From: Escherichia phage vB_EcoS_PJ16
Length of the DNA stretch: 57,756 bases
Reading direction: 5' to 3' (one strand)
Sequence record: OQ955832.1
A program made the translations under genes and the position numbers. Positions 2,025 through 22,984 of the stretch are shown in pieces. Under the pieces are notes generated by a model. That model made no database searches. It had not been told where the DNA came from and saw only the letters and a program-made list of their open reading frames with translations. Every line of letters begins with the position of its first letter. Positions within the stretch are counted from its first letter, which is position 1.

Positions 2025-2935
2025 CGTTTTGCCTCCCCGCCGAGTGCCACCACAAGTTGTTTAATCAGCGCCTGAAGTTCACCTGTCATTAGTACAAAAT
2101 CAGCGTCAAATCGTGCCAGAACATCTTCAAGGTCAATATCGTCATTCTGTCCGATCAGTCCATCACAGAACTTCACACGGTTTAATGTCATGCTGTCAGT
2201 TAGCGTAAACGTTACCCGCTGCTGCCAGTCCAGAGCCAGCTTTGTAACGACTTTCCCTGCTTCAATATGTGTGGCTATTTCATCACTGGTTAAATCCTGT
2301 TTTTTAACGCGTGCAACACCGCCGTCAGTCAGGATTGCTTTCAGTTCAGCAGCGTCACCCATTGTAAAACCTGTTGGCGCGTTTCCTGAACGTACCCACT
2401 CCGTTGTTGTCAGTTCAACAGGGTTTTCAGTTGTCAGTGGGACTACAGGCAGACTACCCAGGGATTTACGCAACAGCGCTAACGCATCTTCAGCCCGTTT
2501 AGCACTGGACGCATCAACCACGATTAACCCGTTAGTGATGTCGATCCATAACTGTGTACGACTGTTTTTAACGAACACCCGTGGTAACAGACTGTGTAAC
2601 ACTTCGTCTTTCAGCGCGTCTTTCTCTGTTTTCTTCAGTTTACGCGCCTGTTCAGCTTCCAGTTTGGCGATTCGCGCGTTCAGATGTTGTTTAATGACCG
2701 GGCCAGGAATAATCTTTTCCTGTTTCTGAATAGTCAGCAGATATTGCCCATTAGCCTGGTGAACCAGTGTATGATGTTGTTCAGTTGCCGGAATCCATCC
2801 AGTACGCGCCATATCCTGTGAACCGCACGGATTGAATTGAAACGCACACAGGCTGTCTTCCAGCGTTGGTAAATGGGCCATTAATTGCATCGGGTTAGTC
2901 AGGCGATAAATGATTGCGTTTTTAAAGAAGTTCAT
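2021..2935 (-). CDS. rdgC: Recombination-associated protein RdgC
   Basis: 304 aa; N-terminus FKNxxxYRL and long blocks ([53 protein letters not shown]) match enterobacterial RdgC as recalled. Confidence 0.85.
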
Positions 2936-3129
2936 AGTTCAATGTCCTGTGGTTTGATAGTAACTTTTCCGTCAAGAACAACAGTGTTTACACCACTTAG
3001 TTTTTGTTCTTCGTATAAATCAAGTTCAACATTAATTCCGACGATTGAGGCTTCGTGTATCGTGCTGTTTAACTGTTTAATAAGATCTAAAATTCTACGC
3101 TGATAATCTTGTGCTTCTGTTAGTTTCAT
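2932..3129 (-). CDS. Hypothetical protein (65 aa)
   Basis: Track ORF; ATGA-coupled chain. Confidence 0.5.
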
Positions 3130-20383: not shown

Positions 20384-21403
20384 ATGAGTTACAAACAGAA
20401 TTTTCGCGACGTTGGCGCACCAGATACATTCCTGTCTAACTTTTCTGTAAGTTACTGGCAGGATACATCACTGTTTGTTGGTACTCGTTATTTCCCGGTA
20501 GTTCCTGTTAATCAGGCTGCTGGTAAGTTTCTGACTTACCCGAAAGGTTATTTCGGTCGTCCGGTTAACTCCAAACGTGCCGAAGATGGTGTTGCTAACA
20601 CTATTGGTTACAAAACCAAAAACCAGGGTTACACCGTTGATGACGATGCGATCCGTATCTTCATTTCTGACAAAAAACGTGCAAACGTTCAGAACGGTCA
20701 GCAACTGGATATGGAAGCGTCTGCAGTAACCACAGATGCGTTACTGATCAATAAAGAAGTGGATTTTGCTGAAAAATTCCTGACCGCTGGTAAATGGGGT
20801 CTTGATTTCCAGGGTAAAGACACGTCTCCGTCCACGGGTCAATTCCTGAAATGGTCTAATGCGAATGCCGATCCGATTGGTGATATCCTGTCACGTCGTG
20901 TTGCGTTCTCTCTGGCATCCGGTGGTCGCCGCTGGAATAAAGCACTGATGACGCTGGACGTGTATGACGCACTGACCCGTAGCCCGGCTGTTATTGACCG
21001 CATTAACGGTGGTTCTACCACTCAGAATCCGGGGATCGTGACTAAACAGGCACTGGCTGCACTGCTGGAAGTTGACGAACTGGAAATCATGCAGTCCGTG
21101 GTTAACATGGCTGCTGATGGCGTTGAAGACGGTGACGGCAATCCGCTGTCAGACTTCCAGTTTGCTAAAACTGGTGTGCTGATGCTCAACTATGTCGAAC
21201 CGACTGTTGGTAATATGAAACCTGTTGCGGCTGCGGGCTTCGTGTGGAACGAGTTCATCGGTCTGGGTGTTAACAACGGTCCGTCTATCCGCACCTATCC
21301 GGGTGTTGAAGGTCGTCGTGGTAATTTCGTTGAAGCGGAATTTGCCATTGATGTTCAGATGGTTGCACCTGACCTGGGCGTTCTGTTCTACGACGCGGTT
21401 TAA
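20384..21403 (+). CDS. Major capsid protein (putative)
   Basis: 339 aa; strong RBS; position after scaffold; followed by terminator. Confidence 0.6.
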   Translation: MSYKQNFRDVGAPDTFLSNFSVSYWQDTSLFVGTRYFPVVPVNQAAGKFLTYPKGYFGRPVNSKRAEDGVANTIGYKTKNQGYTVDDDAIRIFISDKKRANVQNGQQLDMEASAVTTDALLINKEVDFAEKFLTAGKWGLDFQGKDTSPSTGQFLKWSNANADPIGDILSRRVAFSLASGGRRWNKALMTLDVYDALTRSPAVIDRINGGSTTQNPGIVTKQALAALLEVDELEIMQSVVNMAADGVEDGDGNPLSDFQFAKTGVLMLNYVEPTVGNMKPVAAAGFVWNEFIGLGVNNGPSIRTYPGVEGRRGNFVEAEFAIDVQMVAPDLGVLFYDAV

Positions 21404-21423
21404 TAACAACTGTGGTATTATTA

Positions 21424-21451
21424 AGGGGTGGCTTATGCTGCCCCTTTTTTT
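21424..21451 (+). terminator. Rho-independent terminator
   Basis: GC stem ggggtggc...gctgcccc then T7. Confidence 0.65.
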
Positions 21452-21466
21452 CATGAGGTTAAAATC

Positions 21467-21820
21467 ATGCGTAATTCATATGATCCGTCACTGAAATATG
21501 TTTTCACCCGTCCGATGCTGTGGAATGGTAAACAGATGTCCGCTGGCGATAAAGTATCAACATCAAAAGCTATCCCGGCTGTTTTAAATGCCCTTGTGCG
21601 TATGCGCCACATTGAACCAGCTACTGCGACCGTTGAAGAACCAGTGACTGTAGCAACCGAAGAATCGGTATCAACCACAGCTGCTGAAATCCGACGTGAC
21701 GCGCCAAAAACCTATAACGTTTATGTTATGGGTATGCCGATGAATTCAGAATCATTCAGCAGTAAAAGTGCCGCTGCTGAATGGTGTGAATCTCAAGGCT
21801 TGACATATAACTATTCTTGA
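21467..21820 (+). CDS. Hypothetical protein (117 aa)
   Basis: Track ORF 21428-21820 trimmed to ATG 21467 with GAGG RBS. Confidence 0.45.
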   Translation: MRNSYDPSLKYVFTRPMLWNGKQMSAGDKVSTSKAIPAVLNALVRMRHIEPATATVEEPVTVATEESVSTTAAEIRRDAPKTYNVYVMGMPMNSESFSSKSAAAEWCESQGLTYNYS

Positions 21821-22573
21821 CCTATTGTTAGTTGTAGATAGTTTTCGTGGCGACTTTGCGGACTTTTTAGAAACTGACCACAAAGATAAATGCAAACGAA
21901 GAACGTTTTCTGATGGCGGCGTAATAGCCTGTAAGTCAGCAAGGTCTTCCGATTCCTTGTAAATAAATTCGGCGCACTGGCCCGGTGTGATTAATAATGG
22001 GCACCCACGAATGAGAGTATTGTGATTGATCGTCGTTCTTGCGCGCAAAGTCTGCTCGAAGACAGTATTCTCATTCGTGGGTAACAACGGGCGTGTCGCC
22101 TTAGTAAATCCCTCAAGGGTGCAGCGAATAATCCGGTAATGTCGTTGCCGTAAGCCGCACGAAACGTGGCACACAACAGGTAAGAGCATTTGGTCAATGC
22201 GAAGTTATTCGCGCAGACGTAAGGCCTAATTGTCGGCAGTGCTCTTATCGTTGTGGTGAATTGCAGTTCTCAGAAACAACCAGAAGATAAGCGTCTGGCA
22301 CCACAACACAAACACTCGCTGATAAGGAGGTGATCCTTATCTTGCTGGCGGGAAAGCCGCAAATCGTGGGTAAAGCATGTTGTGAAACATCCTGAACTGC
22401 GTGTCGTTTTACATAACTGGTTATTCACGTGTCACGCATAGGGGTATGTTGGGACGTCAGGTGTGGATGACCAGTTATGTAAAACCCTCATTATCACCCA
22501 GAGCCATTTGCCGTCTGTTTAAGACGGCTTTTTTCGTGCTAATATAACGAAAACATTTCTCACAGGTGATCAC
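21821..22573. other. ORF-free structured intergenic region (about 750 bp)
   Basis: All plus frames closed; minus ORFs lack RBS; long hairpins, palindromes and a terminator at its 3' end. Confidence 0.6.
22510..22534 (+). terminator. Rho-independent terminator
   Basis: Stem gccgtct/agacggc then T6. Confidence 0.7.
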
Positions 22574-22984
22574 ATGGCTATTACAGTTGAAGGTATTCGT
22601 TATTTGATCAGTGTCCCTGATGTTACTGATGAACAAATTCAGTGGTACATTGACAACGGTTATACAAATCCTCTCAGTATTTGCGTTGCTCTCTGTGATT
22701 ATATGGCGTCTATCGCCAGCAACGATACTGATATTAAAGTAGGTCCGATCTCACTCAGCAGTAGTCAGTCAGCAGACGCCTGGAATAAACTTAAAAAAGA
22801 TTTTATTTTACGTATTAATACTGGCGCTGATTCAGGTGGTGGTTTGTTAGGTAGTTTTATGGGTGTTGGTGGAGCTACATTAACTGGCGCTGGTATGCAA
22901 CCTGCTATTCAACGTGGTCAGTTCGACAACCCACCTGTAACACTTGAAAGCGGTGGTCGTGCACTTAACGAGGGTGAACGGTGA
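22574..22984 (+). CDS. Head-tail connector protein (putative)
   Basis: 136 aa; first gene of tail-proximal block. Confidence 0.4.
   Translation: MAITVEGIRYLISVPDVTDEQIQWYIDNGYTNPLSICVALCDYMASIASNDTDIKVGPISLSSSQSADAWNKLKKDFILRINTGADSGGGLLGSFMGVGGATLTGAGMQPAIQRGQFDNPPVTLESGGRALNEGER

What the first reader, a model, noticed from the sequence alone, without database searches (positions are those of the whole stretch)
22318..22345. Hairpin containing a 13-nt perfect complement of the 16S rRNA 3' end
Plus strand ctgataaggaggtgatccttatc contains TAAGGAGGTGATC, perfectly complementary to the canonical 16S 3' tail, folded into a hairpin (gataagga / tccttatc) whose stem covers the SD. Only a 17-codon TTG-initiated ORF follows. 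This could be a structured, regulated super-SD for a micro-ORF, or a sequence-specific decoy. On the minus strand the same site reads as the 16S 3'-terminal sequence itself.
Basis: seen in the sequence. Interest (0 to 1): 0.5.

Follow-up and report, generated by a model that had tools for sequence, protein, structure and literature searches.

The report
Ribosome-docking hairpin of phage leader RNA
The 14-base perfect match to the ribosome's mRNA-docking tail is real, and it is the front end of an uncatalogued structured RNA shared by well over a hundred enterobacterial phages; it most likely loads ribosomes onto that RNA rather than starting a small protein gene.

Summary
Observation confirmed. 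TAAGGAGGTGATCC (22323-22336, + strand) is a 14-nt perfect complement of the 16S 3' tail. It is unique in the window: the next-longest match is 9 nt, and chance expects 0.0004. It sits in an 8-bp hairpin, and TTG follows at 22342.

The site is not an isolated oddity. It is the 5' module of a ~80-nt RNA element (H1 to H4, 22321-22401). This element ends a promoter-to-terminator, gene-free RNA island (21800-22534) in a Sashavirus/9NA-like phage.

A covariance model and pattern scans found the same element in more than 150 phage and prophage loci. These include lambdoid prophages, Klebsiella myophages, and Yersinia, Cronobacter and Hafnia phages. It is absent from Rfam and unannotated in the phage and E. 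coli genome records whose annotation was looked at.

Helices H2-H4 covary strongly (14 of 16 pairs). The 16S-complementary tract, a 5-6-nt spacer and the UUG persist. The hairpin partner and the ORF length (6, 9, 12 or 17 codons) do not, so no micro-protein is conserved.

Best reading (confidence 0.45): a 30S-docking initiation site for a leader mini-ORF that lies inside the structured RNA. A non-translated 30S binder, acting as stabiliser or decoy, remains possible.

Noticed in passing: the same island carries a tmRNA-like tag RNA that has no tRNA-like domain.

The parts
21800..21828 (+). Sigma-70-type promoter of the RNA island (TTGACA, 17 nt, TATTGT). It overlaps the 3' end of the gp37-like ORF.
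   Evidence: 10 of 12 matches. Conserved in Sasha, AVIO78A and the Klebsiella relatives. Annotated as a promoter in AVIO78A.
21836..22004 (+). tmRNA-like tag module on the same transcript as the finding. It contains GCA AAC GAA GAA CGT TTT CTG ATG GCG GCG TAA (ANEERFLMAA*), a helix that holds the stop codon in its loop, and two pseudoknots. No tRNA-like domain was found. Noticed in passing.
22179..22249 (+). Bracket helix GGTAAGAGCA...TGCTCTTATC enclosing a hypervariable ~50-nt domain.
   Evidence: The helix is kept by compensatory changes while the loops differ between phages.
22250..22307 (+). Hairpin module GTTGTGGTG...CACCACAAC. It is also found after trnT in phage P1 and in the N leader of phage epsilon34.
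   Evidence: Three fully compensatory pairs versus epsilon34.
22321..22341 (+). H1, the hairpin of the finding: stem gataagga/tccttatc, loop ggtga.
   Evidence: Clade-specific stem.
22323..22336 (+). 14-nt perfect complement of the 16S rRNA 3' tail. The GGAGGTGATC core is kept in all 9NA-like phages except Sasha, which has GGAGGTGACC.
22342..22395 (+). TTG-initiated 17-codon mini-ORF, stop codon included. The reading frame is not conserved as a peptide across the family.
22348..22360 (+). H2: a 4-bp G+C stem (GCGG/CCGC) with a GNAAG pentaloop. The first six codons of the mini-ORF run through it.
   Evidence: Compensatory G-C to A-U changes in L036 and in the temperate family.
22365..22401 (+). 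H3 outer helix (CGTGG/CTGCG) and H4 apical hairpin (ATGTT-GTGA-AACAT, a GNRA loop).
   Evidence: All 12 pairs show compensatory changes across the family.
22403..22492 (+). Long hairpin insertion found only in Sashaviruses, between the element and the terminator. Its apical motif TAGGGGTATGTTGGGAC also occurs in the 3' hairpin of T1-like tag RNAs.
22510..22534 (+). Intrinsic terminator that ends the RNA island.
   Evidence: The stem is kept with a different sequence in L020/L037. Annotated as a terminator in Sasha.
22537..22545 (+). Extended -10 element TGcTAATAT. This is the separate promoter of the gp38 operon (ATG at 22574; its own SD AGGTGATC at 22564-22571).
   Evidence: TGnTAnAAT is conserved in all relatives, despite a 22-nt insertion in 9NA and SP069.

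Best explanation
The hairpin is the ribosome-binding module (H1) of a conserved structured phage RNA. The RNA has four parts:
- H1, carrying an extended Shine-Dalgarno tract.
- A 5-6-nt spacer followed by UUG.
- H2, a short G+C stem with a GNAAG pentaloop.
- H3 and H4, the latter with a GNRA loop.

Proposed mechanism:
1. The 3' tail of 16S rRNA in a 30S subunit pairs with the tract. It starts from the exposed GGUGA loop and displaces the clade-specific partner strand. After paying for hairpin opening, the net gain is still about that of a strong SD.
2. Initiation at UUG places the ribosome directly on H2. The first six codons are H2.
3. Ribosome loading therefore melts and remodels the H2-H4 fold. 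The peptide is irrelevant; its length is 6 to 17 codons.

In most phages this leader sits 10-15 nt upstream of the RBS of a small late gene, ahead of the terminase genes. There it would act as a ribosome-loading or regulatory mini-cistron for late mRNA. In the 9NA/Sasha lineage the same module has been placed at the 3' end of a tRNA and tmRNA-like RNA island, just before its terminator. In that setting, ribosome docking would govern the fate (stability, folding, partner access) of the ~215-nt 3'-terminal RNA.

Shown: the complementarity, its conservation, the spacer and UUG conservation, RNA structure by covariation, non-conservation of the peptide, and the transcription-unit signals.

Inferred: 30S binding, initiation at UUG, and the consequence of either.
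For: (1) Uniqueness. The 14-nt perfect complement occurs once in 57.8 kb, and 0.0004 are expected.

(2) Purifying selection on the nucleotides. The 77-nt core is 91-96% identical between the Salmonella/E. coli and Klebsiella 9NA-like clades, with no indels. The adjacent gp38 gene is 74-88% identical, and its third codon positions are 48-68% identical.

(3) A wider family.
- Model R1 scores 23-56 bits in 57 further phage or prophage sequences.
- Pattern scans give more than 120 IMG/VR contigs plus Yersinia, Serratia, Enterobacter, Buttiauxella, Dryocola and E. coli prophages.
- With an anchor that does not include the tract (CGGGTAAGCCGTAAGT), 119 of 149 loci have exact GGTGATC within 30 nt upstream.
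- Most of the rest have one-base variants. Several of these keep pairing to the 16S tail through G-U: GGUGGUC, GGUGAUU, GGGGG.

(4) Initiation-site signature across the 67 distinct sequences of alignment A7.
- Of the 66 in which the site could be read, 64 have a 6-14-nt contiguous complement. The other two are hits cut off 5' of the tract.
- Predicted duplexes for those 64 are -15 to -26 kcal/mol.
- UUG is present in 61 of 66.
- The spacer sequence varies but its length stays at 5-6 nt.

(5) The tract and the UUG persist while their cis pairing partners change. This points to a trans partner, namely the ribosome.

(6) RNA on the + strand. For H2-H4, 94.7% of cells are paired, 14 of 16 pairs have compensatory changes, and slid controls reach at most 42%. 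There are many G-U pairs. A promoter and a terminator flank the island.

(7) Energetics. The 16S duplex (-21 to -26 kcal/mol) outweighs the hairpin (-9 to -14 kcal/mol) in every clade.
Against: - No direct evidence of ribosome binding or translation.
- UUG is a weak start codon. It lies 11 nt from GGAGG, and if the full 14-bp duplex forms only 5 nt of single strand remain, which is awkward geometry for initiation (inference from general knowledge of SD spacing).
- Five family members have UGG or CGG instead of UUG. L107, L408 and probably L067 lack the tract.
- The commonest temperate form (AAGGAUGGUGAUC) needs a bulged U to pair fully with the 16S tail.
- In the window no gene follows. An 85-nt hairpin and a terminator come next, and the downstream operon has its own promoter. 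The benefit of loading ribosomes here is therefore unexplained.
- The near-invariance of H2-H4 within 9NA-like phages exceeds what ribosome loading alone would require.
- The A7 alignment was fitted to the model's structure, which inflates pair counts somewhat.
Confidence: 0.45

Rival explanations
1. Non-translated 30S docking site. The tract binds the 16S 3' tail without productive initiation. It would act as a 5' stabiliser of the processed RNA, like the STAB-SD of cryIIIA, or as a trans-acting sponge or decoy that ties up 30S subunits late in infection. The UUG and the mini-ORF would be incidental to the RNA sequence.
For: - The complement is much longer and stronger than any genic SD in this phage: 14 nt versus at most 8-9 nt, and -25.8 versus about -13 kcal/mol.
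- Conservation is centred on GAGGUGAUC, which pairs with 16S nucleotides 1530-1538, rather than on the canonical AGGAGG.
- In the window the element sits in a terminated, gene-free, strongly promoted RNA next to tRNA-type cargo.
- The peptide is not conserved.
- Some members lack UUG.
Against: - UUG is kept in 61 of 66 members at a fixed 5-6-nt distance, even though its pairing partner changes.
- A decoy would also hamper the phage's own translation.
- In most family members the element is embedded in a late mRNA just upstream of a translated gene, not in a free sRNA.
Confidence: 0.25
2. A structured RNA whose conserved nucleotides serve a partner other than the ribosome. Candidates are a phage or host protein (for example an N-like factor on the boxB-like H2), RNA polymerase (a put-like antiterminator), or a small ligand. 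The resemblance of H1 to an SD would be secondary.
For: - H2 (G+C stem plus GNAAG pentaloop) and H4 (GNRA loop) are classic recognition or tertiary-contact motifs. They covary strongly.
- Sequence conservation in 9NA-like phages exceeds structural need.
- L107, L408 and probably L067 keep H2 or H3-H4 but lack H1.
- The neighbouring hairpin module also occurs in the epsilon34 N leader next to a boxB.
- The element lies just upstream of a terminator here.
Against: - No Rfam family matches, riboswitch or otherwise.
- No boxA partner. The TGCTCTTATC 75 nt upstream is a helix strand that covaries away from the boxA sequence in relatives.
- No conserved antiterminator-terminator alternative was found. 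The Sashavirus insertion moves the terminator 85 nt away.
- The tract's substitutions that preserve G-U pairing fit the 16S tail specifically.
Confidence: 0.12
3. An ordinary strong RBS of a real micro-protein gene whose product, the 17-aa peptide MLAGKPQIVGKACCETS, is the functional molecule.
For: - SD, spacing, start codon, open frame and stop codon are intact in all 9NA-like phages examined.
- dN/dS by hand count is about 0.5. The counts are small and the estimate is not significant.
Against: - ORF length is 6, 9, 12 or 17 codons across the family.
- The stop-or-sense codon after CCG tracks H2 base pairing.
- The amino-acid replacements are radical.
- One compensatory RNA change costs a Pro-to-Leu replacement (L036).
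- Synonymous sites are about as conserved as nonsynonymous ones, whereas gp38 third positions are saturated.
Confidence: 0.05
4. A DNA-level site (pac/cos-type terminase site, operator or palindrome) or a decaying remnant of a lost gene start.
For: - In many phages the element lies just upstream of the terminase genes.
- In the window the site is an imperfect palindrome.
Against: - The helices are kept through G-U pairs, which would be A-C mismatches on the other strand or in DNA.
- The palindrome is not conserved in the Klebsiella clade.
- The element is under strong purifying selection, so it is not decaying.
- In 9NA-like phages it is nowhere near the terminase genes.
Confidence: 0.04

Closest known systems
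STAB-SD 5' mRNA stabiliser of Bacillus thuringiensis cryIIIA (Agaisse and Lereclus 1996; from my own knowledge)
   Same: An SD-like tract with extended perfect complementarity to the 16S 3' end. It lies in a leader with no obvious gene directly behind it, and it is proposed to bind 30S subunits.
   Different: - STAB-SD belongs to a Gram-positive host with 5'-exonuclease RNase J, sits near the mRNA 5' end, and has no associated start codon or downstream conserved helices.
- Here a UUG follows at a conserved spacing, and the tract is part of a covarying four-helix RNA.
- A stabilising effect was not tested.
Leader mini-cistrons and translational-coupling leaders (leader peptides such as ermC, tnaC and thrL; synthetic bicistronic designs; from my own knowledge)
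   Same: A strong SD plus a very short ORF upstream of the real gene, where the act of translation rather than the peptide is what matters. In about two thirds of family members a gene starts 50-60 nt after the mini-ORF stop codon.
   Different: - No regulatory codons.
- No conserved terminator/antiterminator alternative.
- The stop-to-start distance is too long for classical coupling.
- In the window the element is followed by a terminator, not a gene.
Lambda/P22 boxB of nut sites
   Same: H2 is a short G+C stem capped by a five-base G-N-A-A-G loop. It resembles the GNRA-like pentaloop of boxB, and a neighbouring module is shared with the epsilon34 N leader.
   Different: - No adjacent boxA.
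- The fifth loop base is G.
- No N-like protein was identified.
- The position is in late or structural regions, not behind PL or PR.
- This is a resemblance only.
tRNA 3' external transcribed spacer sRNAs (3'ETS-leuZ of E. coli; from my own knowledge)
   Same: In several relatives the element starts about 20 nt after tRNA-Ser(GCU) and ends at the operon terminator. This is the position of a 3'ETS-derived RNA.
   Different: - 3'ETS-leuZ is a sponge for sRNAs and has no SD or mini-ORF.
- The window itself has no tRNA gene.
- Most family members are not next to tRNAs.
tmRNA (for the neighbouring tag module, not for the finding itself)
   Same: - A resume-type GCA codon after AUAAAU.
- A 10-codon AN(D/E)...A(A/V)A tag.
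- The stop codon lies in a helix loop.
- Pseudoknots follow.
   Different: - No acceptor stem, T arm or CCA was detected by ARAGORN or Rfam.
- It is embedded in tRNA islands.

Membership tests
Bacterial translation-initiation region (SD + spacer + start codon) | Complementarity to the 16S rRNA 3' tail | tested here: met
   14 nt perfect match in the window. In 64 of the 67 distinct family sequences the contiguous complement is 6-14 nt, with predicted duplexes of -15 to -26 kcal/mol.
Bacterial translation-initiation region (SD + spacer + start codon) | Start codon at a workable, conserved distance | tested here: met
   UUG lies 5-6 nt after GGUGAUC (10-11 nt after GGAGG) in 61 of 66 sequences. 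The spacer sequence varies but its length is fixed. Five sequences have UGG or CGG.
Bacterial translation-initiation region (SD + spacer + start codon) | Ribosome occupancy and initiation in vivo or in vitro | not testable with these tools
   Needs toeprinting or ribosome profiling.
Protein-coding micro-gene | Reading frame and peptide conserved; synonymous changes exceed nonsynonymous | tested here: not met
   ORF length is 6, 9, 12 or 17 codons. The stop-or-sense codon covaries with H2. Replacements are radical, and synonymous sites are constrained.
Any Rfam 15 family | Score at or near the family threshold | tested here: not met
   Nothing at gathering score in the whole window. Nothing over the element at E<=10. 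Nothing in temperate homologues at E<=1.
Leader-peptide transcription attenuator | Conserved alternative antiterminator/terminator pairing, with the stop codon positioned against the terminator | tested here: not met
   The stop-to-terminator distance is about 35 nt in 9NA and the Klebsiella clade and about 115 nt in Sashaviruses, because of an inserted hairpin. No conserved anti-terminator was found, and a separate extended -10 promoter follows the terminator.
STAB-SD type stabiliser | SD-like tract not associated with a start codon | tested here: not met
   UUG at a conserved spacing.
STAB-SD type stabiliser | Tract increases the half-life of the downstream RNA through 30S binding | not testable with these tools
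   Needs rifampicin-chase northerns with SD mutants.
Lambda-type nut site | boxA followed within about 10 nt by a boxB hairpin, downstream of an early promoter | tested here: not met
   There is no boxA next to H2. The boxA-like TGCTCTTATC (22240-22249) is the 3' strand of a helix whose sequence covaries (GTTCTCTTATC, CCGCCACTCA) in relatives.
Type I toxin (hok/ldr/ibs-like) mRNA | Small hydrophobic membrane peptide | tested here: not met
   The peptide MLAGKPQIVGKACCETS is polar, and the family ORF is mostly 6 codons.
tmRNA (neighbouring tag module 21836-22004) | Tag reading frame with a resume codon, helix 5 and pseudoknots | tested here: met
   11 distinct tags, all of 10 codons. Of 26 pairs, 94.9% of cells are paired and 13 pairs have compensatory changes.
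tmRNA (neighbouring tag module 21836-22004) | tRNA-like domain: acceptor stem with G3-U70, T arm, 3' CCA | tested here: not met
   ARAGORN calls no tmRNA in the window or in 40 related loci. Rfam tmRNA models match only the tag region, below threshold.

The most novel reading that the evidence does not exclude
The element is a trans-acting, ribosome-targeting phage RNA. Its 10-14-nt tract clamps the 16S 3' tail, while the invariant H2-H4 fold contacts the 30S subunit or a translation factor. In the 9NA/Sasha lineage it is co-expressed from one 'ribosome-manipulation island' with a tmRNA-derived tag RNA that lacks a tRNA-like domain. On this reading, these phages reprogram translation initiation and ribosome rescue with RNAs alone.
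Probability: 0.12. Interest if true: 0.9.

Novelty: new variant of a known kind. Interest (0 to 1): 0.62.

Why it matters
This would add a widespread phage RNA family: more than 150 loci across lambdoid prophages, 9NA-like siphophages, Klebsiella myophages and others. The family is absent from Rfam and unannotated in the phage and E. coli genome records whose annotation was looked at, and its defining front end is an extreme 16S-tail complement.

It offers a natural test case for three questions. How does very strong SD pairing combined with a weak UUG start behave? Do phages use mini-cistrons or 30S-docking RNAs to control late-gene expression or RNA fate? Why do phages keep promoter-to-terminator RNA islands among their structural genes?

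It also corrects annotations. 9NA gp42 and AVIO78A_052 are extended upstream across the terminator. The small ORFs called on the opposite strand in Bas79, and plp/upl in P1, overlap these RNA modules.

The neighbouring tmRNA-like tag RNAs without a tRNA-like domain could open a question in ribosome-rescue biology.

Tried and rejected
- **Rfam.** Gathering threshold on the whole window, and E-value mode on 21400-22700 and on relatives. Nothing matched the element; only sub-threshold tmRNA hits on the tag module.
- **ARAGORN.** No tRNA or tmRNA in the window.
- **Homology to E. coli genomes.** The 9NA-type core gave no match. The diverged type hit six E. coli genomes, in phage-type gene neighbourhoods where these were looked at.
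- **Wider rRNA complementarity.** Tiles of the element against 16S, 23S and 5S rRNA gave nothing above shuffles apart from the SD tract. One tile in the Sashavirus-only hairpin scored z about -3.7 against 5S and was not pursued.
- **Attenuator model.** Rejected on the variable distance to the terminator and the downstream promoter.
- **boxA/nut model.** Rejected because the boxA-like string is a covarying helix strand.
- **Micro-protein model.** Rejected on family-wide ORF variation.
- **Hairpin sequestration as the selected feature.** Not supported: 0.59 of the tract paired versus 0.55 with shuffled flanks.
- **Minus-strand '16S mimic'.** Disfavoured by G-U pairs and by the strand of the tRNAs and the terminator.
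- **Genome-wide pattern scan.** It returned many high-G+C bacterial hits. Most that were read show one conserved reading frame (FPEKLIPVVILNALAGKP...RDWLYVEDH), which I take from memory to be dTDP-glucose 4,6-dehydratase (rfbB). A few are other coding or chance matches. All were discarded.
- **5' acceptor strand for the tag RNA.** The search found only a local hairpin partner.
- **10-nt antisense match of the tag module's 5' motif to the host ssrA tag codons.** E is about 0.1-0.2, so it may be chance.
- **Literature searches.** Searches for 9NA/Sasha noncoding features, phage tmRNA-like RNAs, and terminase-associated RNA motifs found nothing relevant.
Full report
**1. The observation**

The window is a Sashavirus/9NA-like siphophage, 99.6% identical to Sashavirus BDX09P1 over the region.

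At 22321-22341 the + strand reads gataagga-ggtga-tccttatc, followed by TTG at 22342.
- TAAGGAGGTGATC occurs once. With C22336 the perfect complement of the E. coli 16S 3' end (GGAUCACCUCCUUA, from rrsH) is 14 nt.
- No other site in the window exceeds 9 nt, and SDs next to genes reach 8 nt.
- Composition predicts 0.0004 such 14-mers.
- The hairpin is predicted at -10.2 kcal/mol and the duplex with the 16S tail at -25.8 kcal/mol. That is about twice a canonical strong SD.

**2. Context in the window**

The site lies in a 753-nt gene-free gap (21821-22573). The gap separates a gp37-like ORF, downstream of the major capsid gene, from a gp38-like ORF. A head-closure gene follows.

The gap is a transcription unit of its own.
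- A sigma-70-type promoter lies at 21800-21828 (10 of 12 matches).
- An intrinsic terminator lies at 22510-22534.
- Both are conserved in relatives. One lineage keeps the terminator hairpin with a different sequence.
- Directly after the terminator, a conserved extended -10 element (TGnTAnAAT) restarts transcription for gp38.

The island is modular.
- A tmRNA-like tag module.
- A long hairpin.
- A 'bracket' helix around a hypervariable domain.
- A hairpin module shared with phage P1 (after trnT) and with the epsilon34 N leader.
- The element that contains the finding.
- A hairpin found only in Sashaviruses.

In Klebsiella relatives a tRNA-Ser(GCU) gene sits about 20 nt upstream of the element. 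Other relatives carry a tRNA-like 3' end at the same place.

**3. The element within 9NA-like phages**

The 77 nt from GGAGG to CTGCGT are 91-96% identical between the Salmonella/E. coli and Klebsiella clades, with no indels. The adjacent gp38 gene is 74-88% identical, and its third codon positions are 48-68% identical. Selection therefore acts on almost every nucleotide, including the synonymous sites of the 17-codon ORF.

The few variable positions are as follows.
- One lies in a loop (GNAAG).
- One lies in a linker.
- One is an internal mismatch.
- Two form a compensatory pair in the apical hairpin (U-A to C-G).
- One metagenomic variant carries a double change in H2 (G-C to A-U) that costs a Pro-to-Leu replacement.

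The amino-acid changes are radical: Ile/Thr/Ser, Cys/Arg and Ser/Phe.

In the Klebsiella clade the tract pairs instead with an upstream GAAUCACACC.

**4. A much larger family**

A covariance model of the 9NA-type element found diverged copies in unrelated phage contigs that had been fetched for another reason (50, 28 and 17 bits).

Blast and pattern scans then showed the element in the following.
- More than 120 IMG/VR contigs.
- Enterobacterial prophages: E. coli, Yersinia, Serratia, Enterobacter, Buttiauxella and Dryocola.
- Cronobacter and Hafnia phages.
- Jedunavirus-like Klebsiella myophages.
- Pectobacterium, Proteus and Acinetobacter phages.

The phage and E. coli genome records that list annotation show either nothing under the match or only hypothetical-protein calls (one HNH endonuclease). 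No Rfam family matches. The many high-G+C bacterial hits of the genome scan were discarded. Most that were read show one conserved coding frame, which I take from memory to be rfbB; a few are other coding or chance matches.

In lambdoid prophages the element lies between the lysis cassette (plus morons) and the terminase genes. It sits 10-15 nt upstream of the RBS of a small ORF of unknown function, phrog_6581.

Sixty-seven distinct sequences aligned to the model give the following for H2, H3 and H4.
- 94.7% of cells are paired.
- 14 of 16 pairs have compensatory changes, across 215 cells.
- G-U pairs are abundant.
- Slid controls reach at most 42%.

The caveat is that this alignment was fitted to the model. 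This is a real, strand-specific RNA.

**5. What is and is not conserved around the finding**

An anchor that excludes the tract (CGGGTAAGCCGTAAGT) found 149 loci.
- 119 have exact GGTGATC within 30 nt upstream.
- Nearly all others have one-base variants. Several of these keep pairing with the 16S tail through G-U: GGUGGUC, GGUGAUU, GGGGG.
- Some variants are disruptive: GGCGAUC, GGUAAUC, AAGGCGG.
- Two loci lack the tract.

Across the 67 distinct sequences of alignment A7, of which 66 could be read at this site:
- The contiguous complement is 6-14 nt in 64 of them.
- The predicted duplex for those 64 is -15 to -26 kcal/mol.
- UUG is present in 61 of 66.
- The spacer is 5-6 nt long, with a variable sequence.

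The ORF behind it is 6 codons in 50 sequences, 9 in 3, 12 in 2, and 17 in 11 (the ten 9NA-like sequences and one other). The base that decides between UAA and CAA is the 3' partner of the first H2 pair, and it covaries with that pair (A-U or G-C).

The conserved unit is therefore 'extended SD, fixed spacer, UUG, structured RNA'. It is not a peptide.

The cis partner of the tract turns over. It is a downstream UCCUUAUC, an upstream GAAUCACACC, an upstream ACCUC, or a downstream CCUC. Family-wide, the tract is no more paired than with shuffled flanks (0.59 versus 0.55). Sequestration as such is not demonstrably selected.

The 9NA/Sasha lineage stands out in two respects. The purine tract and GGUGAUC fuse into a perfect 11-14-nt complement, and a terminator rather than a gene follows.

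**6. Mechanism**

The simplest account of a tract and a start codon that persist while their pairing partners change is a trans partner, namely the 16S tail and the initiating ribosome.

I therefore take H1 to be a 30S-docking initiation site. Its mini-ORF runs through H2 (and through H3/H4 in 9NA-like phages), so that ribosome loading remodels the RNA.
- In late mRNAs this would be a leader mini-cistron.
- In the window it would control the fate of the 3'-terminal RNA of the island.

None of the functional steps is shown. Confidence is 0.45.

The main rival is non-productive 30S docking, acting as stabiliser or decoy (0.25). It is favoured by the extreme duplex strength, by the conservation bias toward GAGGUGAUC, and by the terminated, gene-free context here.

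A non-ribosomal partner for the invariant H2-H4 fold (0.12) would explain why conservation exceeds structural need and why L107, L408 and probably L067 lack H1.

A functional micro-protein, a DNA site and a decaying relic are each unlikely. The reasons are given under the rival explanations.

**7. Comparison with known systems and novelty**

The element works most like an SD-dependent leader: a STAB-SD-type 30S binder or a leader mini-cistron. It is not a member of any catalogued family.
- It fails the attenuator, nut-site, type I toxin and STAB-SD (no start codon) criteria that could be tested.
- It meets the sequence criteria of a translation-initiation region.

I class it as a new variant of a known kind, carried by an apparently undescribed RNA family.

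**8. Seen in passing**

The tag module (21836-22004) is striking.
- 38 loci carry it, with 11 different tags, all of 10 codons (AN[DE]x..L[AM][AV]A). The host tag is ANDENYALAA, from my own knowledge.
- The stop codon lies in a helix loop.
- Two pseudoknots are supported by 13 compensatory pairs.
- No tRNA-like domain is detectable.
- Where tRNA genes are present nearby, the module lies among or next to them.

It deserves its own study.

Noticed in passing
window 21836-22004 (+); also L003, L004, L008, L009, L011, L027, L029, L055-L157: tmRNA-like tag RNA.
- AUAAAU is followed by GCA AAC GAA GAA CGT TTT CTG ATG GCG GCG TAA (ANEERFLMAA*).
- 38 loci carry the module, with 11 distinct tags, all of 10 codons.
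- A helix holds the stop codon in its loop, and two H-type pseudoknots follow: 26 pairs, 13 of them with compensatory changes.
- ARAGORN and Rfam find no tRNA-like domain.
- Where tRNA genes are present nearby, the module lies among or next to them (T1-like, 9NA-like and ~87-kb phages).
   Followed up: partly
window 21838-21847 (TAGTTTTCGT); motif AGTTTTCG in all tag modules: The invariant 5' motif of the tag module is a perfect 10-nt antisense to E. coli ssrA nt 97-106 (ACGAAAACTA), which lie inside the host tag codons. The blastn-short E-value is 0.1-0.2, so it may be chance. The motif also resembles the tmRNA D-loop motif GGUUUCGAC (from memory).
   Followed up: no
window 22250-22307; L006 (P1) 2001-2076; L007 (epsilon34) 2001-2056: A 58-nt hairpin module (GTTGTGGTG...CACCACAAC) is shared at 77-87% identity with phages P1, P7, D6 and SJ46, just after trnT and antisense to the annotated plp. 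It also lies in the N leader of epsilon34 and g341c, between boxB and the N SD, with three fully compensatory pairs. It may be a processing signal. P1 plp and upl may overlap an unannotated RNA.
   Followed up: partly
window 22170-22258; L008/L009/L027/L029 several copies; L006 1945-2010: Recurrent 'bracket' helices (ACAAC-A-GGTAAGAGCA ... TGCTCTTATC-GTTGT; variants CTATC.../...GATAG and TGAGTGGCGG/CCGCCACTCA) enclose hypervariable 40-100-nt domains. Some domains contain T-arm-like hairpins (GGGTTCGAGTCCC). The helices are 15-16 bp long and resemble RNase III-type processing stems around exchangeable cargo.
   Followed up: partly
window 22403-22492: An 85-nt near-perfect hairpin is inserted only in Sashaviruses, between the element and the terminator. 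Its apical motif TAGGGGTATGTTGGGAC recurs in the 3' hairpin of the T1-like tag RNAs (Bas79, Sf11). One 30-nt tile has a predicted duplex with 5S rRNA of -34.9 kcal/mol, against -27.1 +/- 2.1 for shuffles.
   Followed up: no
window 22537-22545 and 22564-22571: A conserved extended -10 promoter (TGcTAATAT) lies immediately after the terminator. The gp38 RBS is AGGTGATC, the same 3'-shifted SD type as in the element.
   Followed up: partly
L005 (9NA) 1577-2122; L002 (AVIO78A) 2290-2808; L003 (Bas79) 2456-3120; L009 1257-1370: Probable annotation errors in public records.
- The gp38 homologues of 9NA and AVIO78A are extended upstream across the terminator. The frame depends on the length of the T-tract.
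- Small hypothetical ORFs are called over the RNA modules.
   Followed up: partly
window 21423-21446: A strong intrinsic terminator lies directly after the major capsid gene and before gp37. This is the usual arrangement for over-expressing the capsid protein.
   Followed up: no
L026 1540-1640, L008, L009 (Klebsiella relatives of gp37): The gp37 homologues of Klebsiella 9NA-like phages contain variable numbers of a tandem GAACCGGAACAGCAACCG (EPEQQP) repeat.
   Followed up: no
L160 320-396: An isrJ-family sRNA (55.7 bits, above the gathering score) lies next to the Q antiterminator gene of an E. coli prophage that also carries the leader RNA.
   Followed up: no
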